NCBI GenBank assembly: GCA_002245135.1
Contig: NGBS01000893.1
Span: 62,001-126,000 of the forward strand
Length of the DNA: 64,000 nt
Direction: 5' to 3'
From: Proteromonas lacertae
Lineage: Eukaryota
Numbering within the stretch: position 1 is the stretch's first letter; each line of letters opens with the position of its first letter. A model generated the notes under the pieces. It was given only the letters and a program-made list of their open reading frames with translations, made no database searches and was not told the origin of the DNA. The position numbers were made by a program, and so were the translations under genes. This document shows, piece by piece, positions 341 through 61,600 of the stretch.

Positions 341-1664
341 ATGGTATAAACTTTTGTTATTTTCTCTAGGAATATGATGATTTTGACCCTGAAAAAAGGC
401 CTGGTGATGATTTAGATAGAGATGATACGAAGAGAATAAGAGGAGGTTTCTCAATAAAATTTTTAGTGTCAGATAACGAAGCAGGCAATATTATAGGAAG
501 AGGAGGTTCTAAATATCATTTTTTAAATTATTGATTCAATGTTCTTTAATATATTTAATGTTAAAGATTTTCAATCAAAAACAAACACATTTGTTCAAAT
601 ATCAACTAATAAAAACCATTTTCCAGGTACACATGACAGAATAGGAAGAATAGAAGGAGAATATGAAGATGTAAGAGATTGTTTGAGTATGATTTTTGAA
701 GCTATCAAAAAAGATACAAGAGGTCCACCGCAAATAATGGTATTAATAATACCAGAAGCAGCATGTGGTGTCATTCTAGGAAAGAAAGGTCAAAGAATTC
801 GAGATATAGTTTCAGATTCAGGTGCAAATATAAAAATCTTAACAGACGAAGCAATCCCTGGTTTACCCGAACGTAAATTATCAATACAAGGCAATTTAGT
901 GGAAAGAAACACAGCAGTAAAAATGATATTAGATTATATGTTAGAAAATCCAATCTATTATACATACGAAATTCAAGGTATAGAATATCCACCTGAACTT
1001 TACAATATACCACCAGTTGGTAGAAGAGATAGAAATAATAATAATAATAATAATAATAACTATGGCTATGATCGATATGAAGGTATGAATAATAATGGAT
1101 ATTATGATTCAAGATCACCACCACCACCTTTTGGATATGATCAATATTACAACAACAACAACAACAATAGAGGTCCACCACCACCACCACCACCTCCACC
1201 AATGGGTTATTATTCTAATCAATCGATGAATTCAACTCCTCCTCCACCACCACCTCCACTACCATTACAAATGCAACAACAACAACAACCAATTCAACAA
1301 CCTGGAATTCCTCCTGTTGTAGGAACGCCATTGACTTTGCCAAAGGAAGTAGCATTGATGTTGGATAGTAATATTACGAGTGATATTATTGATTATGTCA
1401 GAGTATATATGTGTATATAATTGAATAGAAATATAGTAATGCTGAACTCATATTTGATCCTAATGTAAATATGTCTATCCCTGATAAGTTAGTTACATTA
1501 AAAGGTAATACTTTGAGTGTAGATTTAGCATTTTCGATGTTATCCAGAAGATTAAAACCTAAACGTATATATTAGTATTTATCTATATATTAGCACAAGA
1601 ACCTAACCAGTATCCACAAGATATTCCTAGAAATACTTCTCCAATGAGGCAATATGTTAACTAA
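341..1664 (+). CDS. KH-domain RNA-binding protein (Nova/hnRNP K-like), 4 introns, Pro/Asn/Gln-rich linker
   Basis: Spliced model gives KH1 IKFLVSDNEAGNIIGRGGSNVKDFQ, KH2 LIIPEAACGVILGKKGQRIRDI and a degenerate third KH. Introns at 344-369, 513-558 (non-canonical) and two GT-AG introns after ~1403. Stop TAA at 1662-1664. Confidence 0.85.
513..558 (+). other. U12-type (minor) intron with AT-AA termini, 46 nt
   Basis: 5' ATATCATTT, branch-point-like TTCTTTAAT then 8 nt to terminal TAA. Removal restores the KH GXXG helix GRGGSNVKDFQ in frame. Confidence 0.75.
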
Positions 1665-1978
1665 CACATTTTTCGTAATTTCGTTTTTTAAAATAAGTCA
1701 ATTATTCAACAATCTTTTTTAAAAAACAATAATGAAAATCAGAACAACACAATTTATCTAAACAATAAATAATTCATATTATAAATAATCAAATTTATAT
1801 TCATTGTTGTTTCAAATGGGTTTGAAAATAAGAAAATATAGAAAATATAAGGTTTATTAGTGTTAAAATCAACAAAACAATTAAGCCTCGATTTGAAAGA
1901 TAACAGAACTTATTAAGTTATCAATTAGTCTCGGCTTTTATCAAGAGTGATAGATTTTTAAATTTTAATTTTTTGATA

Positions 1979-4262
1979 ATGGCTTCTCAGGTTTTGACAT
2001 ACGGTGAACCAATATTCTATTATCAAGCTATCTGTATTTTTTACCTATATTATACACTAGCCAAATCAATTGGTCTGCATAACACTAAATCTTGTGCTGG
2101 AGACTTCACACGTTTTATTGGTGGTGCAGAAATAGATACATTAGTGAATCTTGCAAAATTGGGTTACAAAACTAACTTTGTCAGTGTTATTCCTAATGGT
2201 ACTTTTATTTTATAATAACACATACTAGGTACTCTTGGTGATGCAATGATGGATTCACTCCAATCCTGTGAAGTTGGACTTGGTAATGTGAAAAGAGTTG
2301 AAGGAGCTGTAGGTGAAGGAACTATCTTAGAAGATGGTTCAGTCTGTTATCAAGTATATTTTTATTATTATCTATTTTTTTAGAGAGTAAATTCAGCCTT
2401 TGCAGCTCAAGATGAAGAAATCGACTGGGATCCATTATTAACTGATGATGTTTGGGTTCATTTGTATATTATTATTAATATATATATCCTATAGAACAAC
2501 TGAATGTTATATGTTAGGAGGACAAGCACAAACTAACTGGATGAATCTATTAACATTAGCAATTGCCAAAAAATTACCAATTAGTTTACATTTGACCTTC
2601 CCACCAGAAGATCCTGACCAATTAAAAGACTTCTGGAAAAAATTAGACATGTTGACTCATTACATTCAAATCCTCGTTTTAAACAAAGAATTAGTAATTC
2701 CTTTTGCTAAAATATTAAAAGTCAGTGTAGTAGATGAATTAGAACGAGAAGCACCACTACCAAAAGATCCAATATGGTATCAACAAGGAAATGCAATTAA
2801 TGATATCCTTCAAGGACCAATCATTGCTTATAACTTCCACAATTACATTGAATCACCTGATAAAGTGACAGAAACATTCAGTATGATCTGTCAAGGCGAG
2901 AAATCAGGTCAAAGTAGTCCAAGACCAGTATTCCATCAAACTATTGATACAAGAGGTGATACAACTGGATTTGTAAGTGGAATAATTGATTATATATTAC
3001 AAAATAAATTAAGCTTTACCCACAGTGATTTAGGCTATAAATTAACCTTGGATGATTTATATCCAATCTGTAGAAGAGGTGATATTATTAGCTCATTCTG
3101 TCACTTACATATTGGTCAACACTCTGCCTTTTTGAGAGATGATATTGAATATTTAGAAAGAACATTCAATGGTAAAGCTGTAGAGATTACAATTAAGAAT
3201 AATAAAATACAAACAATTGAAGAACAAAGAGCTGAAGATGAGAATGAAGTGAAATTAGAACAGATTAGAAGATTCATTTTACAAGCTCATATTAGTGCTC
3301 ATTTGAAGGTAGTAAATCGATCAATATTCTACGACAGACTACAGGAATTCAGAGATACCAATTTAAGAATGATTTCTATCAATATTGATACTGAAAACTT
3401 AGATGAAGTAATTGGTAAATGTAAAGAAATTGGAACTGACAAGATGGTAGTAGGTATTGCAGGAATATCCACAGAAGAAGAATTAAATAAAGCTTTAGAA
3501 TTAGAACCAAACTTCATCATTGCTTCTATTAAACCAACATTTAATTTCGTAGAAAAATGCCATGATCATCAATGTTTAGCTGTTATAAATGCAATGTCCC
3601 CACAAGAAATTATTTCATTATTACCATTAAAACCTGATTTCGTACAAGTATGTCCAGTATTAACTTATAATCCAGAGACATTCCAAATGATGAGAAATAC
3701 TGGAATGTGGGGTAAAATGAAGTTCTTTATAAGAGATGGACCAACTATTCAAAATACACCAGATTGGATGGATCATTTCATTGAAGTGGTTGTATTGAAT
3801 TATAACTTCATTGGTAAAGATTGTTACATTAATAAAGGTACTGAAGAATATGATAATGCTAAACAAGAATTCGCATTGAAAATAAGAGAACCAGCTCATA
3901 AATTATTGTATAATACATTAGGTAAAACTCAATTATCAACTGACATTCCAGTTACTATTCCACCAAGGACACAACATGTTCCAACACCAGTACCAGAGAA
4001 TATTGATAGATTTTTACCACAACAATTGCCAGAACATAAAATATTCAATATACCACCACCACCTGGTAGTAAAGATGAAGCTGAAGAAAAAGAAAAAGCT
4101 GCTAATGAAGCAACAAAGTATGGTTTATATCCACCTCCAGCTGCTGATGCTAATGGTAATATTCCACCACCACCAGTACTTGGCGATGCTCCACCTGCAG
4201 GATATACTGGAAATAGAAGAAGACAAGCTCCAGGAGGTAATTCTACTGTTCAACTTGGTTAA
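1979..4262 (+). CDS. PfkB-family KdgK-like kinase domain fused to KDPG/KHG aldolase (Eda)-like domain, Pro-rich tail; catalytic residues substituted
   Basis: VLTYGE...FIGGAEIDTLVNLAKLGYKTNFVSVIPNGTLGD matches the KdgK N-terminus. VVGIAGISTEEELNKALELEPNFII...AMSPQEI...FVQVCP matches Eda barrel spacing. Four short GT-AG introns at the 5' end. Confidence 0.7.
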
Positions 4263-7676: not shown

Positions 7677-10600
7677 ATGTATGGGTTGTACAACTTTTTG
7701 TTTAGAGGAAGTAGTAGTAATCACCTTGATTTAGCTATTAGGGAAGGTGTAAATAGACACATAAAAAATGAAGTAACAAAAGATGAATTATTAGAAGATG
7801 ATAGAAAAAAACAGCAAAAAAAAACAAAAAAACAGAAAATCAGAAGAAGATAACAATTTCATTAGAATTTTCAGCAACTTAAAGGCTGTAAAATATGCAA
7901 AACTTGATAAAGATGGTAATGTTATTGATGGTGAAAAAAAGATGTATTTAGAATATAAAGATCAAGATGTTAATATATTTCAATTCCCAAAGAAGATAAT
8001 ATACATCAAAGATTGTTATTCTTATATGTTTCAGAAAATTTGTAAGATTATGTCATCCAGACCAGATATATACAATATAATAGTAACAGGTCAGCCAGGT
8101 ATAGGTAAAACATCATTTATTTATGTTTTACTGTACTTTTTAAAGATATATTTATCTCACAATTTCGGTAGAAATTATGAAGAATTGCTAAAGAAAAAAG
8201 AGTTAATTATAGAACAAAAAAATAATGAAAGAGTGAAGAGTGAATTAATTGATGAAGAGAAAAAGAAAAAAATACTACTAAATCAGGAAATATATTATAT
8301 TGAAAAAGATATTAAAGAATATTATAATCAGCTAAGATATATTATTGGTGAAGAAGATATTGACATAACTCCTGAGGTAATCTGTGAAAAAGATGGAGAT
8401 ATTTATACATTCAAACTATTAAATGAAAAAATAAAAATGGATGTTTCAAATGAAATTAATATAAAAAATATTAAAGAACGTTGTCTTGATAATATTAAGA
8501 AGATAAAAGAATGAATAGTGAAAAGTTGTCAATGTAGATAATGAAAATAATAGGCAGTATGAAAGATATATAAATGCATATGTAGTATCATCAATTATAA
8601 GGAAAAGAATTGATGAGATTGTTAATCTAAAACATTCAATGAAATCAGAAGAACGCAGAAAGAAGAATTGTAGAAATGATATAAAAAGAATAAAAGAATT
8701 ACTAAAATTAAATTCTGATAAAAGTAGTTTAAAAACAAATAATTCAACAGATAAAGTAAAAGAAATTGATATATTATCACCACCAGATTATGATGAAATG
8801 AGAAAGTTGGGATTCAATTACTATATCTTAGATGATGAGGTGTGGAAAAGAAAAATATATATAGTTAAAGGAAAGAGATATGAAAATCTTAATGAAAGGA
8901 AAATATTTGAATTTAAAAACAATTGTCTAAGTGTAAGTCATATAAGAGAAAATGATATGAAGGATTCGATAATAATAGTTGACACTTTCAATGGTGAATT
9001 TGGTGATAATAACATAATAATTTCAATAAGTTCCCCTGATATTCATAATAATGATAAGTATAGAGATTCTAGTAATTATATAGAATTATATTTTGATTCT
9101 TTAAATGACATAGAAATATTAGAATGGTTTAAATACTGTATTGATCGTGATGATGTTGCTGATGGTAGTAATACTGCTGATGATATTTATATTGATGTTA
9201 AAAGTAATGATTTTAAAAATGTATGCAAAAAATATGGTAATATACCTCGACATATTTATTACCATTATTTATATAATAAAAACTATAAACATAGAGATTA
9301 TTGGGAATATTATAAGCAGTTGATAAACAGTGTAGTAGGAAGAATTGGTTATAGTAAATTTGTAGATAAATATATTAAGAAAGATAATTTGGCAGATAAT
9401 GATTTATCCAATATTATATTGAAATATGATTTAAAATTAGAATGGGATGATGAATTAAATGATTATTTATTAAAACCAAAAGACCATTTAAAGTTCATTT
9501 CTGATGATGTTGAAAATTTCATTGTTTTTAAATTCTATCCACCTAAAGATGAGACAGAGTATGAGGATGTAAAAGATAAGTATATATCAATTGGCGATGA
9601 TAAAAATATTAGAAAAATGGCATTAAAACAAATAATAGCATATGAATTAAGTACTGAAATTATGAAGTTGAAATATACAGATTCTGATGGTAAAGAAACA
9701 GTGATTGAAACTAATCCAAATTTCAAATTAAACAATGAAAAACAATTCTATCTTCATTATCCTCCAAATGCATTTCATTTTGTTTATTATATATTGGACG
9801 AAAATAATTTCTTTGATTTGATAATGAATGGAATATTTATAAAAATCTTATTAGATGATGAAGTGTTTGATAAGTAAGAAAGATAGAGAAAAAATGGAAG
9901 ATTGTATAAAGGTATGAATATGTAATATATTTATAATAAAATAGGAATACAGTGAGATAAAAAGTGGTGAATTTACATATTGCATAATAAGAGATAAGAG
10001 AGTGTATGATTCTGATGAAATATTTCATATCTCAACTCCGATAAATCATCAACTTGCACTAGAAGAAGAAGAAGATAGTGAAGATGAAGATAGTGAAGAA
10101 GAAGACGATGATGATGATGAAGATGATGATGACGATGATGAATTACTTCAACAACCTGAACAACAACTGCTACCTCAACAGTTAGTAGAGCAACCGCCAT
10201 TAACAACAGAAGAAGATTTTGATGTATAATACAATGGTAAAGAATTGATGTTAATGAGAAAATGTTTCGATGATATGTTGAATTTAATTTATCCTGAAGA
10301 TTTAGATATGAATTATATACATCAAAGAAATTACTTGGTATTTGGTCAACAACAAATTGGTAAATCTGAATTAGCATAAATTATTATAAACAAAATTCAT
10401 AAAAAGAATAACAATATTCGAATAGAATTTAGATATATATCTGGACAATCTGATAATGGTGAGTATAATTATTTTAAGGATGAAAAAGATTATCCATATT
10501 ATCCATATATAGTTGTTATTGATGGAGTTGTTATTAGATAAGATGATTATTCTGATGCAAAAATGATAATAGTATTAGCTAATCCATGTGATAAAAAGTG

Positions 10601-11693
10601 TAAAACATTTCAAAACAAAAGATGTCCTTTGGTGATGTATATACCTCCATTTACAATAGAGAAAGTGAAAAAAGTAATGAAATTGAAAGATCCAGCATTA
10701 ATCAAACCTGACAAAAAAGGATTTATTAAATATACATTAATAGAAAAGAAATCAAATGTTTTTGTGTGTGATAATTTAAAAAGAAGAGTAAGTTTATATC
10801 TCAAGAACTATGAATATTACAGAGGGATTATTGGAAAATATAATTATGATATGAAGAAGTGTGACAGAGAAATAAATGATATGGACAAAGAAGTGATTGA
10901 CGATATGATCCAAGGTATAAATATATCACCATTATCAAAAGCAAAATATCAAAATATACTTACATATGAGACAGATAAAAATGATGTTACTAAATCTAAT
11001 AATCTTCGATTTATTCTGACACAGTAAGAAGTATTGTATGTAATAAACTATTAACAATTAATTCATTTGATAAATGTCATGAAATGATAGATTTATTGTT
11101 TGAAAATCAAGATGAAAATTTTGCTGGAAATTTATATGAAAGAATAATAATATTTTTGATGAAAAATTCTGATGATTTTAGATAAGACAGTTGTTACAAA
11201 GCATGTAATTAGTGAGAAAAAATTGGGTAATGAAATTGATTCATTTAAAGAGAGTCATGATAATTGTGAAATCCCATTTATTGACTTCAGTTATGATATT
11301 ACTTTTCCAGATATTGATGCATTACTTGGACCTTTTGGTGTTCAAATTACAGTTGGTAAAGAACATAAATATGCACCTGAAATGACAATGATTCTACAAA
11401 ATTTGTATAGGATTTATAAAAATGGATATAACTATACAGAAAATTATTATAAGAAAACCAATTTAAAATTGAAATTTGGTTTTATTTTGATAAGTCCAAG
11501 AAAAAATGTTGAATTAATAAAAGTATCTAGAAATACAGAAGCATATCCAGATATTTTTCAGAAACTAACAAATGACAATTTAAGTGAAGATGAAAGAGAT
11601 AAATTAATGAAAAAAGCTCGTCATAAAAAACAAATAATAAAGATTGAATATGGAGAATTAAGAAAATATGCTAAATACAATACCCTTTTATAA
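7677..11693 (+). pseudogene. Disrupted Crinkler/RHS-type P-loop NTPase plus restriction-endonuclease-fold gene with two tandem NTPase modules
   Basis: Walker A IIVTGQPGIGKTS and a second YLVFGQQQIGKSE; hhhhD Walker B (IIIVD, IVVID); GNIPRH; GNLYE; REase-like TFPDIDA...VQITVGKEH. Three in-frame TAA between 10227 and ~10541, several frameshifts and one GT-AG intron near 9912-9944. Confidence 0.65.
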
Positions 11694-13556: not shown

Positions 13557-13628
13557 GCGGGGATAACTCAGTGGTAGAGTGTTCGATTGCAGATCGAGAT
13601 GTCCCCGGTTCAATCCCGGGTCTTCGCT
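13557..13628 (+). tRNA. trnC-GCA: tRNA-Cys (GCA)
   Basis: Cloverleaf: acceptor GCGGGGA/TCTTCGC, D arm ACTC-AGTGGTA-GAGT, anticodon arm TTCGA-TTGCAGA-TCGAG, T arm CCCGG-TTCAATC-CCGGG. U73 discriminator and a downstream poly-T Pol III terminator. Confidence 0.97.
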
Positions 13629-17272: not shown

Positions 17273-18757
17273 CTAAATATCTCTATCCCTACCAATAGCA
17301 TATACTTCAAAACCAATCTCTTTCAACTTTTCAATGTCTAAAATACCTCTTCCATCGAATATGAATGCTGGTTTAACCATAGAATCATACATTTTCTTGT
17401 AATCATATGTCTTAAATTCTTCCCATTCAGTCATTATTGCTATAGCGTGAGCTCCTTTGCATGCTTCATATGGATCAGTTTCTTTATGGAAGTATTTATT
17501 AATATAAGCATTAATACCTTCATGACCGAAGATTCTGTCCATTTCACCAATCATCTCTTCTTCATGAGCTTTTGGATCATATACGTGAATATCAGCACAT
17601 TCATCCATTAAATACTTAGTTACATAAGCAGCTGGAGTTTCACGACAATCACCAGTGTCAGCTTTGAATGCAAATCCCATCACAGCAATTCTCTTATTTG
17701 TAACATTCTGGAACATTCTCATTACCATCTCATGAACAAATCTTTTAGTTTGATATGAATTAATACTTAAAACACCTTCCCAGTATTGTGCTACTTCCTC
17801 TAAACCATGTCTTCTGCATATATATACCAAATTCTTAATATCTTTAGCGAAACAAGATCCTCCAAAACCAATTGAAGCGTGTAAGAATCTACTGACCAAT
17901 TCTGGGATCCATTGATACAGCTTTAGATACTTCATTGATATCTGCTTTCATTGTCTCACATAAGGCAGAAATTGAGTTAATGGAAGAAACTCTTTGAGCT
18001 AAGAATGCATTACTCACTAACTTAGATAATTCAGAGGACCAGATTGTCATCTTCAATATCTTCTCTCTTGGGATGAAATGAGCATAAATGGAAGCTAATA
18101 CTTCAGCAGCTTTCTCTCCTTCTGGTGTTGGCTGGCCTCCGATTAATACACGACTAGGAAATTCTAAATCGTGAATAGCTGAACCTTCTGCTAAGAATTC
18201 AGGGTTTGATAAAACATCGAAATGGAATTTTGAGTTTGATTGTAAAATTCTTTCAACTGAATGAGCAGTTTGTACAGGTACTGTTGATTTTTCTACAATG
18301 ATCTTGTTTCCATTAGCAAAATTACTAATACTTCTTGCTGCAGATTCTACATATCTTAAATCAGCAGCTGAACCAGATCCTTCTCCAATAACTTTTGTTG
18401 GGGTTTATATTGATTAAGATATAACGTCAAAATTCACAATTTCAAACAAAAAGGATATATTAACAGAAATAAATATAATATCTGCAAATTCAATACTTGA
18501 TTTAACATCTGTTGTAAAGAAAAGTTGTTTATTTCTAACTTCTTCAACAATTGGTTGTAAACCAGGTTCGTAGACTGGGAGATTGTCAGAATTCCATGCA
18601 TCAATTTTCCTTTGATCAATATCTGCAACATATACTTTAGCGCCAGGTATCTAGTTTATAATAGTTAAATAAACATTATATTACATACATGCTTGCACAA
18701 TACAGCCATGGTGGGTGTACCTACGTAACCAGCTCCAATGCAACAGATCTTATACAT
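17273..18757 (-). CDS. UGDH: UDP-glucose 6-dehydrogenase; one AT-AA intron and an apparent +1 frameshift near 17892
   Basis: [72 protein letters not shown] and [16 protein letters not shown]. Confidence 0.95.
18405..18458 (-). other. U12-type (minor) intron with AT-AA termini, 54 nt
   Basis: 5' ATATCCTTT (full U12 consensus), branch-point-like ATCTTAAT then 8 nt to terminal TAA. Contains an in-frame stop. Removal restores conserved FISVN-TPTK. Confidence 0.9.
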
Positions 18758-20364: not shown

Positions 20365-21927
20365 TTACAATAATCCTTGTCTACGTAAATCGTCATACAT
20401 TTTCTTAGACAAAACATTTCCCATACTATCTTCATACTCCTCCTCGTTCTCTGCAAGCGCTTCTTCCGATTTCAACTGATGCTTTATTCTCTCATACACT
20501 ATATCAAATATAATAAATACAAATATAATATACATGCAATAGCATCAGCTTTAGAAGTTATATCATGGAAGTGTTTAGAGTTAGGAATACCTAAACATTT
20601 CATACCAAAAGCATGTCTCCACTCTTGAAAATGCAAATCGAACGCTCTTCTACCCCAATAGCTGTGATTACCACAAATCTCACACTTATATTCAACACCT
20701 AAGCCATGAAGTTTCCATAACCAGTAAGGAATTGGTTTACCATCCCAACCTATAGGTAAATTCAATGGATTATAAATAACTTCTTCTTTTTCTTCTTCAT
20801 CATCTTCTTCATCATCACCATTATTATTGTTTGGTTTTTTGATTATATTTTTTTCAGATTCTTCAGCTTGTAATAGTTCTTTTTGTAACTCTTCATAACT
20901 TAATATCTGTTTACGATCTACAAATCTAATAGTTGCTTTTATTCGATCATCTACTAACTGGAAGTAATGTTCAATTAAAAATTCCATTTTTGCTATTGAT
21001 TTATACTGTTCTAAAAATCTCTCTTTTGACTCATGTTTCTTTAAGTTAAAAAATGATGGATCTAAATCAGTATATTTCTTATTTTTAGTATTAAATAATC
21101 TTTCCGCTTTCTCTTCAATTCTTCCACCACACTTTAATCCCATTTGTGTTAAGATTTCTTTCAATTTATCATTTCCTAATAACACTAATTCACCTACACT
21201 TTCATATTCCTTTAAATCTATTGGACATTGGATATTTTGCCATTCTGCAATTTCATTGGATGACCATTTTGTCTCAAACTCTTCTTCAAACTCTGTTTTT
21301 AAAGAGTCAAAATCTACCAGAGGTTGAATTCTCTTGAAATAATCAATTAAATAATCTGATAATGATTGTAAATAGTTTTTGTAAATTTGAGAGAGTTTTA
21401 TTCTTCGTGGGATTATAGATAAATCGTTTATTTTTTCTAAGTATGACAAATAATCATATTTATATATTCCTGGTAGATTTAAATATTGTTCATGCTGTTG
21501 ATGTAAATCAACATATCTTCCATTCATTTCTTCGCCTGAAAATTGGATATCTGGTCGTTCTACTGGGATCATTACTGGATCTGCTATTCTACCTTCAAAT
21601 TTCTTATGATATTCTCTTATTTCTCCTAATCTTTCATAAAACGATCCAAATATATCACCAGTGGACATTGATTTCTTTTCATCTTCTAGTTTACCATTTT
21701 TATCTTCATAAATTTCTTTTGCTCTTTCACTTGCTTCTGATGCTCTGTCAATACAAGCTTTGATGTAATGTTCCTGTAATATTTTATCTTTGGCCTATAT
21801 GATAAATTTATAAATGCAACATATATACATTTCTACCTTTATTAGCTAGTTCATTTTCAATGGTGCTTTCACATAATTCAATTTCTTCATGTGTGGCTCT
21901 AAGATATTCTAATAAAGTTGAAGACAT
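20365..21927 (-). CDS. SF3A3: Splicing factor 3A subunit 3 (Prp9)
   Basis: MSSTLLEYLRATHEEIE, FSGEEMNGRYVDL, GLKCGG, YNPLNLPIGWDGKPIPYWLWKLHGLG..YKCEICGN and HFQEWRH. Two introns. Confidence 0.96.
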
Positions 21928-24637: not shown

Positions 24638-25460
24638 CTAATTATTGTATCCATAAGGAACTGTTTCATAATCATCCTCAAAGTATCTTTTATCATCAAA
24701 ATATGTAAGTCCTATCTTTTCTTCATAAGCAGTATAGATATGATGATTTCTACTTCTAATATGATTAATACCAAACTTCTGTTTAGAAACATATCCATCA
24801 ACCATTTCAGTATAATCATCTCCTGTCATCTTACTTGCTATAGCTGTTATTAATCCTTTACATCTATTGGAGGATTTGAGTGTACCATCATTAACATATT
24901 CCTTTTCATAATAATAACATTTGGATTTCAATCCTCTAAACTTAGTGATGACATAGAATTTCTTACCATCCTGTTCCTCAAACTTGAGTTTATTTAATGT
25001 TCCTGGTTTACATGATAATGAATCCCATTTGTAGTAATTACTGAAAGGAGGCATATTCAGATTACTTCCATCTATATATTTTTGAAGATGATTGAAATTC
25101 CAATAAATATCTTTAGTCTTTACAGAAAAGAGGAGACTGTCAGTATCTGTCATTAAGAGTCTAACATCTTCTGGTGAATTGTAATGTAATACTCCATCAT
25201 ACCAATACTGTTGCATTAATAATTTAGAAAGAGCAAGGATTGTCATACCTATCTGAATAGGTTTATTAATTTTGAACATCTTTTTATGATAATGTACTAA
25301 TCTCAAATCTCCTTGAATAGTATCTATCTTATCAAACCAAGGATCTCTAATAGCTTTTCTTGCCTGATTTTCTGACACTACTAATTTGATACTTCTCCTC
25401 TTATCAACTCTTTCTAAAGTTTTTCCATAAAGTAAATTAAGTAATTTCTTCATAATATTA
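24638..25460 (-). pseudogene. N-terminally truncated protein-primed family-B DNA polymerase (Polinton type)
   Basis: KKLLNLLYGKT (motif B), KPIQIGMTILALSKLLM, MTDTDSL (motif C), GLKSKCY, RCKGL and FDDKRY...TVPYGY. Exonuclease domain and motif A are missing. Confidence 0.9.
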
Positions 25461-25572
25461 GCAGTATGATCCTTTAGATGAAGATGATGATGATGATGAT
25501 GAATAAAACAATAATTAATTTCATTTTTAATATTCTTGTTGTTTTTGTATATTATACTCTCATAATTACAAA

Positions 25573-25902
25573 ATGTTATCAAAAAATAATGAGACTGTCT
25601 TAGAGACAAATGTTGAGGAAATCAAGGAAAGTATAGGAATCCTCTTAGTATATGTCATCCTTTGGGTTATAACAGAAGTCATCAAAATTGTATATTATAC
25701 TTATAAAGCATATTGTCCTCCTAAAGTAATTGAAGTTGTTGAGGAAATTCAGCATAATTTGGGAAGTACAAATAAAAAAGAGGATGATGAGGAAGAGGAT
25801 ATTATTGAAGAAAATGAGGAATTATCCTCCATAAACAGAACATATAGAACAAGTAGTGGAAGATTACACTATCCTCCGTCAAAATATTCTGATACAATTT
25901 AG
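25573..25902 (+). CDS. Element-encoded 109-aa single-TM protein with C-terminal RTSSGR..PP.KY motif
   Basis: ORF track. Hydrophobic segment IGILLVYVILWVI, acidic linker and basic tail. Confidence 0.55.
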   Translation: MLSKNNETVLETNVEEIKESIGILLVYVILWVITEVIKIVYYTYKAYCPPKVIEVVEEIQHNLGSTNKKEDDEEEDIIEENEELSSINRTYRTSSGRLHYPPSKYSDTI

Positions 25903-46318: not shown

Positions 46319-47061
46319 AAATAGTTGTAATTGTTATAATTTTGATTATATTTTTGTTTGGTAAATGAGTATTGAAAAAATGTAGTTGTATATTGAGCTT
46401 TTTTCTATTTTTCTCTATAAAATGTTGTATATTAACACAAATGTCTTATAGTTGTAATAATTAAGTGATTATGTTTATTTATATCAAAGAAACTATGATA
46501 TTACCAACCAGTTTTAAAAAGATTGTTAAATTGTATATACAAATATCTAGTTAGGTGATTTAATCAATAAATATATGATCTTATAATTGGTAGGTAGTTT
46601 ATTTATTCTCAAAATAATCTTAAATCAGATTAACTGAAACAAAAGAAGTCAAATATATATATTTTATATCACATGTGATAATTAGTCTCAAACATAGAAT
46701 AACTAAAGTAAAATAATATCTGTACTATCTTCTTAAACATCTCAATTAAATAGATTTGATTAATAAATATAGCCGTTTCTCAATTTCTATTTCTTTGTTT
46801 TTTTGCTAAAATAGTTAATAAAAATACTTATATTTATCAATAGTTTTATTGTAATAATCATATGTATGGGATGAAAAGCAACACTATACTCTAAATGAAG
46901 GCAATGTGTGTTGTAGGTATTTAAAAATATATATTATGTTATAAAATAAGATAAAAACATGTCTTATTTAATGATTATGTTATAAATCACTCAATGAGCT
47001 CTTGTATGTGAAATTAAAAAATAATTCAATTCTATTTTGAAAATAACCAATCAAAGCGAAA

Positions 47062-50000
47062 ATGTCTTTATTTCTTTGGTTTGCGTTTAGTTTATTATTT
47101 TATGGTGTGTCTCCAGCATCATATGATAAGGTAAAAGTGAATATAGAGGTTGACTCACAAAATACTTTCTATATTTCACTTAATGGCATCATTTATAGAA
47201 TTTTGAATTCAAACGATTTTATATTAATACAAGGGATGAGTATTAGTAGTTTTACAACTGATGAAATCGCTTACACTTCAAAGATTCTTGAATATCAACA
47301 TTTGAGAGAACCAAAGTCGCTAAAAAGCTCTATGACAAATCGTACCTATAGTGGTGAATGGAATAACCCCATATTTGGAATAACAAACGTTAGAGTAGCT
47401 TTTATAAGAACTCTGTGGTATAGAGCAAGTGATCATCCATATCTATGTCATACAAGAGAATTTATAGAAAAATCATTCATACATCTTGATCATGCTGTTA
47501 GATTATGGTCAGGAAATCAACTTGGTTTGAATGTGAGTGGTTGTTATGTATCTGAGTGTGTAGATGCTGTTTCAGATGAAGAATATGCAGATACAGAAAA
47601 TCATAGTTCCTTAGTTTCTAAATGGTATAATCGATTACTGAGTTGGTATAAATGGCCAGAAGGAATAAAAAAAGAAGATTTTTCAACAATTGCTGTTGCA
47701 TGGGGTCCATTAAGTGTTGGTTGGAGTGGTGTAGCTAATGGAGCAAATTGTGATATCTATTTTAATAATAAAGGCACATATTTTGTCTTTATGAATGCAG
47801 GATTTACTGGTGATTTTTTTTATAGAGCGTTTATTCATGAAGCTGGTCATAATATGGGATTTGGTCATGCAGGTGGTCGTCCAGTATCAGTAACAGGACA
47901 ATTACTTAATTATGTAGTTTCAGGTGATTATGTTGATATAGCTAGTTATATGGCAATTGGTAATTGGTATTGTCCAATTTCAGCAAGACAATATCATTGT
48001 ATGGTTTCTAATGGTAATCCACAGCCATGGTATTGGTTTAAATTAGAAGAAGTTGGTACTTATACTGTGAGAATATATGCATTTGATCATCCATATACAA
48101 GACATTTCTTAGGTAATACATCACCATATCATGATGAGAATGAAGAATTTGATGGTGTTAAAATGAAATATACTTGTTTAGCATTAGAAATTCCTTTTGA
48201 TAAAGAAACAATGGTAAGTGGACTTAATATGGAAAATTATCAATATATATCTACATTACTTGAGTATAGATATACAGCAGAAGGACAAATGGCATGGAAT
48301 GCTAGAAGTTTAAGATGGATATGGGGACCTGTATATCAGGCAGATGGTACTATTCATCAAGGTGGTGGTCATACTATGTTAGATATTGATATAGATGGAA
48401 TGACAGGAGGTAGAGAAAATGGTTGGGGTGATGGTCAATTACCACTTGGTGTAACTTGGACTCCAAGAGATATTGATAAAGGAATAATGCAATTTAGATT
48501 AAAGAAAATCCATCCTGGTTCTTTAGAAGCAACAACATTTGAAGTAGTTGAAGATGTAAAACAAAGAAGTTATGATGAACCAGCTTATGTTGATGTAGAA
48601 GTAACTTATAAACCTGGAGTTGCATTTGTTAAACCAACAATTCCACCAAAATTTCCATGCATACATTAAATCTCATTCAATTGTTTCATGCGAGACAGAT
48701 GAATCATCTAATACAATGACTTGTACAACCCAAAGTAGTACATTTTGGTTATTTGGTGAAAGTGAAGGTGATAATAATCTTCCAAGAGTATATAGTGATG
48801 AAGAAGCATCAATAGATGGAAGAAAAGTAATATCATCATTTGGTGGATATACATTCCCATTTTATTTCCATTGTTTTGGTGAAACAATTAATCATCGATG
48901 TGTTAAAATAACAGTAGCAACTGCTAGTGGTGGAAGTGGAGGATTTTCAAATGTAAATCTATGGTATGATTGTACTATTACTAGTGGACCAGATAAGAAT
49001 CAATTATCATTCGATTTTACTGGTAATTCAATATTTGCTGCTGTTCCAAGCGATGCATATGCAATTACAATTAGTGATATGTCTGGAAAACCGATAGATG
49101 TTCTTGGTCATATAGATGGAGGATATTTGTTTTACAGACTTCCTGATTTTACAGTAGATGGATTATTTGAAGGTGTTATTAGAGCTCATGATGATTCTAG
49201 TGCAGTATCATCATATTATAATTTCCAAATGACAAGAGCAAATAATACAGACAGAGTTGCATTTAGAAAGAAAAGAGATAATAACAAATATGAAATAAGT
49301 GCTGCTGCAATTCCACCAAATAAATTCACTGCTCCAACTATGTTATTTAGTCAAACAATAGAAGCGAATGTGAAATGGTATTATCCAATAGTTCATTTAC
49401 AAGCTTTTGATTATATTTTTATTGATATAAAAGGCAGTGTTCCTGAAGGTTTGAAGATAGAAGCAGAAGTAGAAAATGGAAAAGCTGAATTTGATTTAAG
49501 TGAATTGAATGGATATGAAGATATATCTTATAAAATCTTATGTAGAGATGTCTTAGAAATGACCAAAGGGTGGTGTGAATTCTATTCATTTACATTCAAT
49601 AAAGAAATTAGTATATTAAGTGTAAGAGAAGTCTTATCAACAAAATTTGGTAATCAAAGAGTAAATAGAAAAGCAGGTGATAGTGGATTTAATTATAAAG
49701 GTAAAAGATATGGAGTAATAATAAATCCATCTAAAGTAGAATATATTCCATTCAAAAAGACAATCAACGGAAAAGAATATGATTTTGATGAAGTTAATAG
49801 ATATTATGAATTGGGAAATAATGTAAAACCACCAACTCCAGCTCCAACTACACTTCCTCCAACTACACCTCCTCCCAAGCCAGATTTATCTACAAATGAA
49901 GAAATTGAATTTATAATAATTGGTGGTGAGAATGAATATAATAAAATTGTGTATAAACTAAAAGCTACTTTTAATAATCGTGTTGCAGAATTATTTGAAT

Positions 50001-53000
50001 ATTTAGAACCTGGTGAAAACAAAGTTCATTATTATTTAAATCATGATGATTATTATCTTGAATATGGAAATCACCAAGACAATAATGATTGGAGATATTC
50101 TCAAATAATAATCTCCATAGTAGATGGTCCAGTGTTATTTAAAGGAAGTTACGATGGTAGTTCAGTATTAAATCATAAACATTTGATAGTAAAGAATTAT
50201 ATGAAAAGTGATAAGAATTTAAAATACATTGACAAAGAACAATATGATGATAATTGGAAAGAAGGTGAATATATGAGTACTTGGAAAGATGGAAGTTCAA
50301 GATTAGATTCATTAAAAGGTGTTGATAAAAGATATTATTATAAGTCAATCGATATTAGAGAATCAATGGAAGATATAGTGTCATTCTATATGAAAATGAA
50401 GATATGTGGAAAAGCCACATTATATATGAATAAAATAAAATTCCAAATAATCGAAAGATGTAATTCAGATGATTATATAGAATTTAGCGTTCAATCTCAT
50501 ATAATGAATGTTGGTATAAACCATTTGGCTGTTGAATTTGAAAATATAAACAACATCGAAAAAGATGTATTTGAAATAAGTCAATTCTTTATGTTGACAG
50601 TTGATTCTGATCCAATTAGTTTACCAACAACACCTCCTCCAACACAAAGTCCAGCTGATTTTAATCTAATAACTGAAAATACTGAATGGGAATATAGTGA
50701 TGATAATCAGAATGATCAATTATGGACTTCATTCTATAAAAGTGAAGTTGATAATTGGAAAAAATCTTCTGAAAATCATTTTGAAACAAAATCAGCAGTA
50801 ACTCGATATTATCGAACAACCTTTACAATTGAAAGTGTTTTATCGTTAGTTGGTACACCTCAAGCTTAGAATTGAAGCTTAGTGAAGGAATAATCGTATA
50901 TGTAAATGGCTATGAAATCTATCGATACAATTTAGAATGTGGAATGATCAACTCTAATATAACATCAATAAAATCCTATGAGAATATAAGAACAAAAACA
51001 ATAATGATTCCTTTAAGTGTGATTTATCAAGGATTGAATTATATAGGTGTTGAAATTCATGAGAATAAGGAAATAGTAGATAAAATAGATTCGTTCTATT
51101 TGAGATTAGGAATAACAAATCCAATAAGTGAAACTCAATTAATGACTTCCAATGCTGATGTAAATATAAATCATTATCCAAATAAAGAAGGATTGGAATG
51201 GAGTAATAAGAATGATATTCATGATGATTATGATAATTTGAAAACTATGAACAAATTCAATTATGGAGGAGGTGAAGCTGCTGTATTACCTTGGAATACA
51301 ACAATCTCATTAAAGAGTGATGAAGCTAGATATGTGAATGTGTTTAGATTTGCTGGTTGTACAAATGATGCAAATACTCATCCCAAGAGTATAATTGTAT
51401 ATGGATCAACAGATAAAGATAATTTGGTATGGGATGAAATATATCGAAATGATAATTTAGAATTTGAATTAGCTTACAGTAATGTAATTAGTGAATGTCC
51501 TGATGAATTGATAGTATCAATTCCAATTTATAAATCTTATGAAATATTAAAAGTATCAGTGTTAAAAACAAAATATTATAGTAATTGGATTCAATTTAGA
51601 TTAATCACATTTAATCAAACAAGACCAAAAATCTGTAAAAGCTTAGGCGAATTTCCAAGTGCATTTGGTAATAGTGATGTGAAAGTTGGTTGTAGTGAAT
51701 CTGGATATAAGATTAGAAAGTGTGACAAAGATGGTTATTGGGAAGATAATATTGATGAAAGTGTATGTAAAGGTGAAGTAATAATTCCAACAACACCAGA
51801 ACCAACGACAGTTAAACCAACTACTCAAAAACCAACCACTCTTCCACCAACTCCACCTCCATTAATATCAGTTGATTTACCATCTTATCATGTTACTGTA
51901 AATGAAAAAAAGAATGAAATCATTCCTGAATCAATCTCTACAGTAGAAAATGTGAATAAAGAAGCAAAAGAATTGAATTTCAAACCATCAACAAAGAAAC
52001 ACTTAATAATTGAAAATACCATAACAAAGAATAGAAAAAATAATATAAATAATCTTCCATATGCTTCAGAATCAACAACTAAAGAATTCTTAGATTCAAT
52101 GAAAGATATAAGAAATGATATAATTTCATTTACGCAATCTTATTCAATAAAAATGGAAAAATATGAATTACCAATAATTGAAAGTGGAAAAAGAATAGAT
52201 TTTGGTAGTAATACTTTAAATTTACAGTTTTCTCTATTTGACAATAGAAGAAGATTATTAGAAGAAGAAGATAATAGTAATAATAATACAAATTCAATTA
52301 GACTTTTTGGTGATTTAAATAATGTGACGATAGAGAATGTAGAAATTAATATTTATATGAAGAAAATAACAAATGAGATAGTAATAAGAGAATGTGGAAT
52401 ATTTGGTTCATTAAATAATTCCACATTGAAGAATATAAAACTTAAATTCTTTAACAGTATTCGATTTGATTGTAGTGAAAATTCAACAACAAATGGATTA
52501 ATAAGTGGTAAAAGTGAGAATGCAATATTTGAGAATGTCCAGATAGAATTTTATAAAGATAATATCAGAACAATGGCAATAGAAAATAAAGATTCAAATA
52601 TATTTGGAATGATTGTTGGTGAAGGAAGTAATATTAGAATCATTAATTGTAATGTATTTGGTGATATAATGACAGTGATAAATAATGGAAATAATACCAA
52701 AGACAATAGCAGTATATTTGGTGGATTAATAGGAAAATGTAATGATAAATGTGAAATAAGTAAATCTTATATTCAAGTGAATAATATTCTGTTATATCAA
52801 AGTATAATATTTGGTGGATTAATTGGTTCATTGAATGATGAAAGTGAGATGAAAGTAAGTAATTCATTTGTGTATATTGAAGATGGTTTAAGAATTGGAG
52901 TAGATAAAAATCAAAATGAGTTTGTATATGGAAGTTTTATTGGTGATACAAACAGATGTAAAGAAGTGAATATTAATAATAGTTGGGACAATTTTCATAA

Positions 53001-54562
53001 CAATGGGAATAGAAATCAATACAACAACAACCAATTTTGGTGGGATGATAGGAAGAATAGGTGATATTAGTGTTGAAAATACAATAATCATAACAAATTC
53101 CTCAATGCAAATGCCAATTGGTCATAACACATTTATATTCAGAAATGAAACTGAAGATATTGATGAATCTCCAAATGTTGGTTTTATATTTGGAACAAAT
53201 TTAACCAATAATAATACTTATACATTAGATCATACAATGGCTTATGTAGAATCATGTAATCCAAATTCTCATTGTATATCACCAGAAATGTATTATCAAC
53301 CATATGGAGTATATCCAGCTAGTAAAAGTAGATTATTAGGTGTAACAGAAAATAATTATTGTAGTGGATCTGGAGCATTGAAAGATGAAGGAATATATCA
53401 AAGTTCTGAAGGATTGGGAAATGAATTTTGTAATTCTTTTGGAAGAACAACTTGTGAAGGATATAATGGAATATGCTATGATCCATTATCCTTTAGTCCA
53501 TGTAAATTACCTAAAAGTAAAGTTGAATTGAGTTTAAAAGTAGATAGAATCAAATCTGCAACAAGTAGAAAATTATGTCCAAATGATTGTAATTCTTATG
53601 GAGTTTGTATTTATGGTAAATGTTCATGTTTTCCTGGTTTTACTTCATTTGATTGTCGATTAAGAACATGTCCATTTGGAAGTCCAATTTCAAATCCATC
53701 AAATGAATATGAGAAAGATGATAGAATGAATTATGAATGTTCAAATCAAGGAAGATGTAATAGAGAGAGTGGATTATGTGAATGTTTTAATGGATTTGAA
53801 GGAAATGCATGTCAAAGAACAAAATGTCCAAATGAATGTTCAAATCATGGAATTTGTATGACAGTAAGTGAAGCTGAATTAAAGAAAGAAAAGGATAATA
53901 TAAACGATAATGATAAATACAATTATGATATAAATTATGTGAAGAAATATGAGAAATGGGATAAAGATTCAATTCAAGTATGTGTTTGTGATAAAGAATA
54001 TCGAGGAGTTGATTGTTCAATTCGAAAATGTCCATATGGATATTTAGCTGATAGTGAATGTGATTCCTTATCTCAAAGTGAAATTACAATTACATATTCA
54101 GGAACAATTTCTAGTGGTAATGATAATGATAAAATCTATGTGAAATATACAGATCCATTTGGTAGAAAATGGTTTACAAAGAGTTTTAGTATAAATAAAA
54201 GAGAAGAATGGTTAGATGTTTTAGGTTCTTTACCTCCAGGTGTTATATCAATTGAAGATATTACAGTAAGTGGTAATAATCCAATTACCATTTCCTTAAC
54301 CTTCTCAAAACATCAAACAGGAAGACAATATCCAATCGAAATAATTGGAAAGAAAGAAATGGAAAATTACAAAGAATTGAAAGATAAAAATAGTGATAGT
54401 ATTATTGAAATAAAAGATAATGAATTAACATATGAAATGGATTATACTCAAAGATCTTTAGAATGTAGTAATAATGGAATTTGTGATATAAAGAGTGGAA
54501 TATGTAATTGTTTTGATGGATTTAGAGGAATATCTTGTTCAGAAGTTGATTCTACTTTTTAA
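47062..54562 (+). CDS. Giant secreted multidomain protein: metzincin peptidase, beta-sandwich modules, Pro/Thr linkers, (I/F)GG(L/M)IG repeats and a mastigoneme-like EGF C-terminus; split into 4 ORFs by three frame breaks
   Basis: Signal peptide, HEAGHNMGFGH with downstream Met (ASYMA), YYRTTF...GIIVYVNGYEIYRYNL module, and the C-terminal series CPNDC..DCRLRTCPFG..ECSNQGRCNRESGLCEC..WD....CVCD..DCSIRKCP..ECSNNGICD. The ORFs abut or overlap on one strand. Confidence 0.7.
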
Positions 54563-58396: not shown

Positions 58397-58687
58397 AACA
58401 ATTAATTTATGTATCTCTATAACTTGATTTCATGTTATAATACATTTTTGAATAAAGAGTGGTTATAAAAATAGCAGCTGTTTACTATATTAGTACTTTT
58501 GTTATTTTTGTTTATAAATTATATCAATATATCATCATATATAGATATATCATACATTCATATCTCCTTATCTTTTTATTCTTATAAAATTTGACTTTTT
58601 ATAATCAAGCCAAACAAATCCTTTTTTTCGTTTCAAATTCTAAAATCGATATATAATAGAAATTACTACTTTTTTACCAATAGAATC

Positions 58688-61600
58688 ATGAGTACAGGTA
58701 TGAATATGTCCGTATTTTGAGTTTTATTTGTCATTTATATTCCATCTTTCACTCATTTTATACAACTATAGAGAACGAAGGAAAGAAACCTCCCTATTCT
58801 TGGAAATTATGGGAGAATGATGATTGTAAAGGTAAAGAGTTGTATTTTTATGGTCATTCTTCTTGTTTAATTGGAGATCGTGTTGTTTTATTTGGTGGTA
58901 TAATTCTCACTATTTGTAATAATATAGGCGCCTCATTTCCTGAAGGAAGTCTTGCTTTAGAAGAAGATTCCAAACCACCCCTTTCAAACGCCATAGCTAT
59001 ACTAAAAATTTTACCAAATGGAAGTTTTCAATGGTGTGGCAAAATGATAACTAATGGCAAATGCCCAGCTCCCAGAATGGGTCATACAATGTGTGCAATA
59101 GACGATAACCACATATTAATATTTGGAGGAATGGGAGAAACACAGAAATTCAATGATATGTGGTTATGTGATTTACAGAATCTAAAATGGGATCCAGTCT
59201 ATTATACAGGCACACCACCTACTCCAAGATGTGAACATAGCATGTGTGTTTATAAAGAATCTGATGATAATTTAAAACTGTTTATTTTCGGTGGAAGTGT
59301 TGGTAAAGGTTCAATTAAATATGATTCTAGTGATTTATATAGTTTTTCATTACGAGATCATTATTGGGAACAGTTGGTGTGTCCTTATCCGAAGAATTTA
59401 CCTGAACCACGATCAGGACATATAATGGTAGAAAGTGGAGGATGTTTATATATGTATATTTCATTCATTTTTATTTATTTTTTCCTATTATATTATAGAT
59501 CAGGCGGTATATCCAATCACAAAACCTATCAAGATCTTTACGAGTATAATATCCTAACCAACAATTGGAGACAATTACTCGAACCACCAAAGCCTTTATG
59601 GTTTCATTCTGCTTGTACAGCTGATAGAAAAATCATCATCTTTGGCGGACAACAACGATTGGATAAGATAATAAGTGATGAAGGATTTAATAATGATTTA
59701 TTAATGTGTGATACAACAGTAAAAGATGGTTCTTGGAAGATAGTAAGTGTATTAGGGAATCCACCACCAACACGAAGATCTTGTACTTTCCTATTTGATG
59801 AAGAAAGAAGTAGAGCAATTGTGATAGGTGGTACTGCTAATAAAGTAAGACCTGGTATTTATACATTAGAAATAACAAGACCTGAATATTTATTAACATC
59901 ATTAAACCCTCCAAAAGGTATAGTAAGTGGTGGAAGTCCATTGGAATTAGTTGGTGATAAATTTGTAAAAGATGAAGAAATATGGATAAGATTTATACAT
60001 AAGAATGGTAGATGTGAATCACCAGGTACATTTATTGATACACAACATATTATCTGTACAACTCCTGATTTTAGTGAAGTTGGTTGTGGTAAAGTAGATG
60101 TAGAATTATCAATAGGTGATTATAGAGCTGTAAATACACTAAGTTATGATATATTTGCATTAACTGATGCTTCATTATGTGTTCCATTTGGCATTTCATT
60201 GAGTGATGATAAGAAATTAGCAACTACAAAATCACATTCATTTCGAATATTTGCTATTGATGTTAGTGGAATAAGCAGAGATTCTGGTGGTGATACATTT
60301 ATAGTTGAATTAGTGAAAGATGATATGGAAATAAAATATCAAGGCAAAGTGATAGATAACAACAATGGAACTTATACTTGTAAATTTAGTTCAAATATTA
60401 CTGGTAAATTCTTTTTACATATTTCATTATTGAATGTTGCAACAAATGAAACAAAGCCATTAAGAGAATCACCGTATTTATATTGTTATATTATTTTATA
60501 TATTATAGATTTACATTATATTTTACTGATCGAGATGATGGTTGGTATAACAAAGAAAATGAAAGTGATGATTCAAAAATGTTAGCTAAAATAATCAACA
60601 ATTTATTATCTGATCAACATACAATGGATAAGTTATCACAAAGATTCAATAATATAAGCGATGTTAGTAATTTGAATGATTTAATCCACACTCAACATGA
60701 TGTGGATGATTTACAGAATAATGCTGGACAATATGCATATCAATTTAAACGATATGAAATACAATTAGATTATTTACAAAACTCAAAAGGTGCAGATCAT
60801 GGATTAACTTGGTTTAAAGAGATTGATAATCAAAAAGCAAATGTAAAGAGATTAAAAAATGCATATCAATATAATGTTGATAGAGTTCCAGATGTACAAA
60901 AAGCAATATTGGATAAAAAAGAATATTTTCTATTAGCTGTTCAAGGAGAATTATCTCAATTTGAGCAAAGAGTTCAAACATTACAACAAGAATTATCAGC
61001 TGATAAACAAAACCCGTTATTTATATGGTTAAGAGGTTCTTATTTAATAGATGTTAAAACAAAAATTACTGATGAATTACAGACATTAGATGGAATGAAA
61101 GAAGAATATAATCATTTTATGTATATGGCTAAACAATTTGACTGTCAAAAGTTACTATTTCCTGTATCAGTATTAGATTTTGAGATTCAGAAATTGAATG
61201 CATTATCAGATGTATGGGATGAGAAAGATGCTTATACAATATGGAAAGATAAATTAGACAAAAAACTGTGGTGTGAAACTACAACAGATTATATAGAAGA
61301 AAGTTTACATCCATTAAGAGCTTTAATTGAATATAAACCAGTTATTGGAAATAGTGATATATATCAATTTATGATGAGTAAATTAGATTATTTAGAAGAT
61401 CATTTGGAGTTGTTTCAATCGTTAAAACATCAAGCCATGACTCGAGAACAATGGGAATACTTATTACAGATGTTAAAGGCAAGTACAAAACTTTGTCCAA
61501 TGACAAATCCACGAGTAACAATGAAGAATATATTTGATTTGAATTTGTTACAAAACAAACAATTAGTGATGGAAATAACTCAAAAAGCAATTTGTCAAAT

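What the first reader, a model, noticed from the sequence alone, without database searches (positions are those of the whole stretch)
18405..18458. Minor-spliceosome intron ending in AA (AT-AA) inside UGDH
Seen: the conserved UGDH motif FISVN-TPTK is interrupted by 54 nt that begin ATATCCTTT and end ...ATCTTAAT-CAATATAA, with an in-frame TAA. The AC two bases further on gives a frameshift, and no GT-AG pair preserves the motif. Known: RTATCCTTT with a CCTTAAC-like branch point close to the 3' end defines U12 introns, whose termini are normally AT-AC or GT-AG; AT-AA is rare. Inference: both U12 introns found in this window are AT-AA, with identical TTAAT+8 nt geometry and a TAA end. This suggests a lineage whose minor spliceosome routinely uses AA acceptors chosen by distance from the branch point.
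Basis: partly seen in the sequence, partly recalled or inferred. Interest (0 to 1): 0.85.

Follow-up and report, generated by a model that had tools for sequence, protein, structure and literature searches.

The report
Rare AT-AA minor intron in UGDH
A 54-base intron that starts with AT and ends with AA interrupts a sugar-metabolism gene of an AT-rich protist; it is likely cut out by the minor spliceosome, a known rare kind of intron, and its odd last base likely reflects the genome's drift towards A and T rather than new splicing machinery.

Summary
A 54-nt AT…AA insert (minus strand, 18458–18405) splits the UGDH motif FISVN|TPTK, and no GT-AG pair rescues it. Intron-less contigs from a relative about 90% identical join at exactly this junction. 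Genomic ORF fragments from a more distant relative imply an AT start and an AA or AG end, not AC. A second AT-AA intron (513–558, KH-domain gene) rests on protein register alone.

AT-AA is the commonest non-canonical U12 end pair, and branch-point distance is a known factor in 3' site choice. In published Blastocystis ST1 introns, 60 of 150 AT-start introns read already end in something other than AC (50 AG, 6 AA, 4 AT). Reweighting those counts by this window's AT-rich composition predicts 11–28% AA with unchanged machinery. Two introns cannot show that AA is the lineage's routine acceptor. No genome, own-organism reads or snRNAs were available. The host is probably Blastocystis-like (inferred). 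New member of a known kind; interest modest.

The parts
18405..18458 (-). UGDH intron 2, 54 nt, AT-AA, U12-type, phase 0 between Asn and Thr of FISVN|TPTK
   Evidence: best removal; a relative's contigs skip exactly this
18450..18458 (-). U12-consensus 5' splice site ATATCCTTT
   Evidence: 0 of 29 control GT-AG introns have C at +5; a relative's read-through I-S-L is compatible
18413..18418 (-). likely branch-point sequence CTTAAT; candidate branch A at -11 or -10 from the 3' end
   Evidence: 0 of 29 control introns have CTTAAY 5-10 nt from the end; branching not shown
18689..18757 (-). UGDH exon 1 (ATG at 18757)
18651..18688 (-). UGDH intron 1, ordinary GT-AG, 38 nt
   Evidence: joint 18650|18689
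18459..18650 (-). UGDH exon 2 (PF03721 NAD-binding domain)
17273..18404 (-). UGDH exon 3 to the TAG stop (PF03721, PF00984, PF03720); carries one extra base near 17895 that shifts the frame, likely an assembly error
   Evidence: (base absent in both runs)
513..558 (+). second AT-AA intron candidate, 46 nt, donor ATATCATTT, TTTAAT+8, in the first KH domain of a KH-domain gene
   Evidence: score 60 against 50 for the next option and 34 for the GT-AG option; no transcript support

Best explanation
A 54-nt intron with AT-AA ends interrupts UGDH and is likely removed by the minor (U12) spliceosome, which would recognise the ATATCCTTT donor and the CTTAAT branch sequence and cut after an A-N pair 8 nt past that sequence, with the last base likely only loosely checked. 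Shown: the insert, its motifs, the absence of a GT-AG rescue, and joining at this junction in a close relative's contigs. Inferred: the U12 spliceosome as the enzyme, the branch adenosine, and the reason for AA. The last base is probably under weak selection, as in Blastocystis ST1, and strong AT pressure (intron interiors about 94% AT) moves it to A. A G-to-A change from AT-AG is the simplest route. No new machinery is needed.
For: Best-scoring removal of 61; the only GT/GC-AG option destroys the motif. One contig in each of two runs (one study) joins at 18403|18458 and also lacks the GT-AG intron. That organism matches P0123 at 5 of 5 residue changes, with 31 synonymous to 5 non-synonymous codon changes among the 40 differences listed. 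P0001, P0121 and P0122 (Logan; P0001 is 85% identical to the first part of exon 3 and 89% to the rest) begin M-I-K|TPTK, so their intron ends AA or AG. P0281 (87%) ends AVN|ISL, so an AT donor compatible with ATATCCTT. Control GT-AG introns: 0 of 29 have C at +5, 0 of 29 have CTTAAY near the end, and 2 of 29 are 46 nt or longer. ST1 tally of 150 introns: AC 90, AG 50, AA 6, AT 4. Composition projection: 11-28% AA.
Against: No reads from the window's own organism were found, and the assembly has at least one indel in this gene. The transcript evidence is from a relative whose intron ends are unknown, and RNA origin is the tool's guess. No minor snRNA lies in the window and no genome was held. 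The 8-nt spacing is longer than the 5-6 nt of the six ST1 AT-AA introns read. The second intron's donor has A at +6, seen in 0 of 339 ST1 ATATC introns. P0001 and P0281 are not shown to come from one genome. The lineage is inferred, not placed: the 64-column tree is unresolved.
Confidence: 0.8

Rival explanations
1. Lineage-wide shift: this lineage's minor spliceosome has come to use AA as its main acceptor, beyond what base composition gives.
For: 2 of 2 candidates in the window end TAA with identical TTAAT+8 spacing. An AC 2 nt further on in UGDH, at a human-like distance, would shift the frame with this donor. ST1 has only 6 of 150 AA.
Against: n = 2, one chosen for being odd; the lower 95% bound on the AA fraction is 0.16. 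Composition alone predicts 11-28% AA. The relative's end could be AG.
Confidence: 0.3
2. Assembly error: the true intron is AT-AC and the last base, or a dropped dinucleotide, is wrong in this assembly.
For: One extra base near 17895 in the same gene is absent from both runs. Other unexplained frame breaks lie near 36345, 50867 and 7833. No own reads.
Against: Three proteins from a relative imply an AA or AG end at the same intron. A second intron would need the same error. The error evidence found is for indels, a few in 64 kb.
Confidence: 0.07
3. Major-spliceosome intron with G-to-A changes at both ends: ordinary introns here run GTAT...TAG and these two run ATAT...TAA.
For: 26 of 29 control introns begin GTAT and 29 of 29 end TAG. 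The KH intron's donor departs from the U12 consensus at +6.
Against: CC at +5/+6 and CTTAAT in introns that are 3% C; 0 of 29 controls have either. The relative keeps an I-S-L read-through. Both candidates are longer than 27 of 29 controls. The controls were picked by eye, so their uniformity is partly circular.
Confidence: 0.05
4. Shifted register: a canonical AT-AC intron at 18456-18403 giving N-I-P-T-K.
For: In frame, canonical ends, only 3.3 bits below the best removal.
Against: The relative's joint is 18403|18458, not 18402|18457. The donor would lose the consensus. None of 139 UGDH proteins reads VN|IPTK.
Confidence: 0.03
5. Decayed intron in a UGDH pseudogene.
For: Frameshift near 17895.
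Against: 31 synonymous against 5 non-synonymous codon changes to the relative. The rest of the frame is intact. A non-AC end is implied in intact relatives. The KH gene's candidate is independent of this.
Confidence: 0.04

Closest known systems
A-type (AT-AN) U12 introns of animals and plants, AT-AA subtype (PMC10639083; PMC1557818; PMC8280824)
   Same: ATATCCTT donor, nearby branch sequence, AA end. AT-AA is the commonest non-canonical pair in both kingdoms and almost 75% of non-canonical ones in plants.
   Different: There non-canonical ends are about 4% of minor introns; here 2 of 2 candidates are AT-AA. These introns are tiny (46 and 54 nt).
Blastocystis ST1 U12 introns (PMC5608401 and its supplementary file 32)
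   Same: Short AT-start introns, longer than the roughly 30-nt major introns; branch motif very near the end; second-last A fixed and last base variable (90 AC, 50 AG, 6 AA, 4 AT of 150 read).
   Different: ST1 is 54.6% GC and AA is 4%. Spacing after the motif is 5-6 nt in its six AT-AA introns against 8 here. No ST1 donor reads ATATCA (0 of 339).
Physarum polycephalum non-canonical U12 introns (bioRxiv 10.1101/2020.10.12.336362)
   Same: A protist minor spliceosome tolerant of the last base: AT-AG 29% and AT-AA 27% of 1,014 non-canonical U12-type introns, with the branch A 9-12 nt from the end.
   Different: Physarum has a changed TTTGA branch motif with matching U12 snRNA changes and a greatly expanded minor-intron set; here the motif is near canonical and only two candidates lie in 64 kb.

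Membership tests
U12-type (minor) intron | Conserved 5' splice site RTATCCTT | tested here: met
   ATATCCTTT at 18458; 0 of 29 controls have C at +5. The KH candidate has one mismatch at +6.
U12-type (minor) intron | Branch-point consensus close to the 3' end | tested here: met
   CTTAAT with A at -11/-10; human optimum 11-13 nt; 0 of 29 controls.
U12-type (minor) intron | Excised from the mRNA at these borders | tested here: inconclusive
   A relative's contigs join at the same junction; no RNA from this organism; nothing for the KH intron.
U12-type (minor) intron | U11, U12, U4atac and U6atac genes in the genome, pairing with the sites | not testable with these tools
   No genome held; none in the 64-kb window.
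U12-type (minor) intron | Splicing depends on the minor spliceosome | not testable with these tools
   Needs depletion or in-vitro splicing.
Canonical AT-AC subtype | 3' end AC | tested here: not met
   AA in the window; AA or AG implied in a relative; the shifted AC register is contradicted.
U2-type (major) intron of this genome | GT...TAG ends, no C at +5, median 34 nt | tested here: not met
Blastocystis-like host lineage | Phylogenetic placement with named sequences | tested here: inconclusive
   Close hits are unnamed Logan proteins; the best named UGDH hits are diatoms and other stramenopiles at about 55-58%, mixed with Bacteroidales MAG entries. Tree unresolved. Intron sizes, low GC and encoded stops resemble the low-GC Blastocystis and Proteromonas figures in PMC12129017.

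The most novel reading that the evidence does not exclude
A low-GC, Blastocystis-like gut protist lineage in which AT-AA has replaced AT-AC as the main minor-intron type. Its 3' site would be fixed by an A at a set distance (8 nt past the branch motif) even when an AC lies 2 nt further on, and its donor would also be relaxed at +6. It would be the first genome where the non-canonical pair is the rule.
Probability: 0.3. Interest if true: 0.62.

Novelty: new member of a known kind. Interest (0 to 1): 0.36.

Why it matters
On its own this is one more AT-AA minor intron. It matters for annotation, because pipelines that demand GT-AG or AT-AC would break UGDH and similar genes in this lineage. If a genome-wide tally showed AA dominance, the lineage would be a natural experiment on how the minor spliceosome checks the first and last intron bases. 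It would also test whether mutation pressure alone can reset a splice-site consensus. A side result points the same way: about a third of the ST1 AT-start introns read end in AG, a pair that a review (PMC3584512) calls disfavoured.

Tried and rejected
No whole genome was held, so the genome-wide tally and the snRNA search could not be run. No RNA holder of the window's own sequence was listed; this is not evidence either way. The KH intron has no read or contig test. A metagenome scan for the exon-donor motif gave 119 loci, none with UGDH or window similarity, so all chance matches. The KH homologue search gave one cluster of 8 proteins, all starting at the second KH domain, so uninformative about the intron. 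Rfam found only a tRNA. The Atlas gave no lineage clue. A scan for further U12-type introns found no convincing third case; the candidate at 2484 is the tail of a GT-AG intron. The rough gene-structure run printed no minus-strand chains below 28.5 kb and mis-set the KH acceptor by one codon, so it is not a full annotation. A tree of the exon-2 region did not unite the sequences with an intron at the N|T position (4 changes). ST1's UGDH was not found in the supplements searched, most of which that call could not search. Earlier scan notes held nothing relevant. Reverse-transcriptase template switching is unlikely: border similarity is 0.67 against the 0.916 cut-off of the Physarum preprint.

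Full report
Observation. The window is 28% GC, eukaryotic and gene-dense. UGDH lies on the minus strand, ATG at 18757 to TAG at 17273, with Pfam PF03721, PF00984 and PF03720. Intron 1 is an ordinary 38-nt GT-AG. The 54 nt at 18458-18405 begin ATATCCTTT, carry CTTAAT followed by 8 nt and end TAA in frame. I scored 61 in-frame removals with common end pairs against a profile of 98 full-length homologues. AT-AA 18458-18405 is best (190.4 bits). Two shifted registers, AT-AC and AT-AT, score 187.1, and the single GT/GC-AG option scores 139.3 and deletes the motif. Of 139 UGDH proteins in hand, 129 read VN|TPTK, 8 lack the stretch, 2 differ otherwise, and none has I at that place. The consensus motif alone is not beyond chance (19 of 100 shuffles). 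The tighter pattern (2 hits, 0 of 100 shuffles) was built from the hits.

Evidence from relatives. No run holding the window's own DNA was listed; two runs of one study share 6% of the words. Laid on the gene, they are about 90% identical. One contig in each skips 54 nt at 18403|18458, with one base of ambiguity that includes the proposed borders, and skips the 38-nt intron. A shifted AT-AC would have given 18402|18457. Caveats: RNA origin is a guess, although the loss of both introns fits mRNA. The X2 contig runs on into unlike sequence before the stop codon. The relative's own intron ends cannot be seen. From the 40 differences printed (89 more were not shown), this organism matches P0123 at 5 of 5 residue changes and shows 31 synonymous to 5 non-synonymous codon changes.

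A more distant relative shows the intron ends through ORFs called on unspliced DNA. P0001, P0121 and P0122 begin M-I-K before TPTK, so the last three intron bases encode Lys and the intron ends AA or AG. P0281, the top hit of a search with exon 2 plus read-through, ends AVN|I-S-L, which requires an AT start and is compatible with ATATCCTT. P0001 and P0281 are 85% and 87% identical to the window and probably one lineage, but this is not shown. Three more distant unnamed proteins (P0283, P0290, P0308; 50-56%) imply GT-AG introns of 31, 31 and 34 nt at the same N|T position. A 64-column tree does not unite them with the window's gene. Shared ancestry with a change of intron type is therefore a possibility only.

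Second intron. Against the gene's second KH domain it is the best of 91 removals (60; next 50; GT-AG 34). It has no transcript test, and its donor has A at +6. I found no third candidate.

Controls. I took 28 of the 72 GT-AG calls, chosen by eye as lying inside clear genes, plus UGDH intron 1; the other 44 were dropped as likely noise. Median length is 34 nt, 26 of 29 begin GTAT, 29 of 29 end TAG, and interiors are about 94% AT. None has C at +5 or CTTAAY 5-10 nt from the end; 1 of 29 has TTAAY+8 and 2 of 29 are 46 nt or longer. The two AT-AA introns stand apart from this class, which argues against a major intron with G-to-A at both ends.

Assembly quality. The window has one extra base near 17895 that both runs lack, and further frame breaks near 36345, 50867 and 7833. 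An error at the acceptor cannot be excluded without own reads, but the relative's non-AC end and the second intron make it unlikely.

What is known. PMC10639083 (passages): AT-AA is the commonest non-canonical minor-intron pair in animals and plants; non-canonical ends are about 4% of minor introns; Blastocystis ST1 has 253 minor introns, 77% AT-AC, about 42 bp. PMC1557818 (passages with Table 2): 8 AT-AA cases. PMC8280824 (passages): defines the AT-AN class. PMC3584512 (passages): branch-to-3' distance is important, optimum 11-13 nt; AT-AG appears disfavoured. bioRxiv 10.1101/2020.10.12.336362 (passages; supplements closed): Physarum non-canonical U12 introns are 29% AT-AG and 27% AT-AA. PMC12129017 and its preprint PMC10690189 (passages; supplements not read): some Blastocystis have 21-23% GC, longer variable introns and encoded stops, and Proteromonas has 27% GC; the preprint text has no hit for U12 or minor.

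PMC5608401 (passages, section 39, supplement list and file 32): ST1 has 346 U12 introns and all four snRNAs. File 32, cut when stored, holds 339 introns starting ATATC; every one I read, including the last, is in the ST1 sheet. I read 150 of the 339 (numbers 1-90, 151-180, 310-339) and counted by hand: AC 90, AG 50, AA 6, AT 4, with A second-last in all 150. None of the 339 starts ATATCA. Searches (listings only for papers not named above) showed no report of an AA-dominant lineage. The library lacks most subscription papers.

Mechanism. The likely reading is standard minor splicing: donor and branch sequence are read together, and the 3' cut falls after an A-N pair at a short fixed distance. 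In UGDH, A-N pairs end 3, 4, 6, 8, 9 and 10 nt past the motif; in the KH gene 4, 8 and 9; only 8 keeps both frames with these donors. The last base is loosely checked, as ST1 shows. Dividing the ST1 counts by ST1 genome composition and multiplying by the window's gives an expected AA share of 28% (intron interiors), 22% (intron tails) or 11% (whole window), with no change in machinery. This is a rough projection. That AA arises most simply from AG by a transition is inference. Two of two AA fits this model tolerably and fits an AA-dominant lineage somewhat better; I put the latter at 0.3.

Host. Unplaced. Short GTAT...TAG introns, low GC, encoded stops and stramenopile-leaning UGDH hits suggest a Blastocystis-like or related gut stramenopile. 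A dynein heavy chain with Kelch repeats upstream leaves a flagellate relative open.

Verdict. The lineage-wide claim is untested. New member of a known kind; interest 0.36, or about 0.62 if AA dominance is shown.

Noticed in passing
window 17895 (-): One extra base shifts the UGDH frame; both laid runs lack it and homologues read through. Likely an assembly error.
   Followed up: partly
window about 36345 (-), 50867 (+), 48605-48669 (+), 7833 (+): Further frame breaks inside coding regions with no clear intron; possible assembly indels.
   Followed up: partly
proteins P0283, P0290, P0297, P0308 (also P0339, P0353): Unnamed eukaryote UGDH fragments leave the frame at the same N|T position with a GT start; three imply GT-AG introns of 31-34 nt. 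Possible U12/U2 type change at a shared position; the tree is unresolved.
   Followed up: partly
PMC5608401 supplementary file 32, ST1 sheet: 50 of 150 ATATC-start introns read end in AG, a pair a review calls disfavoured; the passages of the paper I read describe the class only as typically AT-AC.
   Followed up: partly
window 58684-64000 (+): Kelch repeats, IPT/TIG and filamin domains followed, across a 35-nt intron, by a dynein heavy chain (DHC_N2, AAA_6). The layout recalls a flagellar outer-arm dynein (recalled, not tested), odd if the host lacks flagella.
   Followed up: partly
window 24638-25621 (-) and neighbours to 27587: ORF with a DTDS-containing motif that recalls a family B DNA polymerase fragment of a Polinton-like element (recalled). 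No Pfam or convincing PDB hit.
   Followed up: partly
window 47047-54562 (+): Very long predicted surface protein in several frames, with an HExxH metallopeptidase-like stretch (weak Reprolysin/M66 hits) and teneurin-like EGF repeats.
   Followed up: no
window 1904-4262 (+): Weak PfkB kinase start (E 0.027) joined by short introns to a 600-aa region without a Pfam hit; possibly a sugar kinase fusion.
   Followed up: no
window 7795-11693 (+): Fragmented P-loop NTPase-like gene (weak AAA hits) with several frame breaks.
   Followed up: no
window 13557-13628 (+): tRNA gene, the only Rfam hit.
   Followed up: no
window 20499-21794 (-): SF3a60 (SF3A3) gene; close relatives (90% and 70%) exist only as unnamed Logan proteins, and the best other hits are about 40-44%.
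   Followed up: partly
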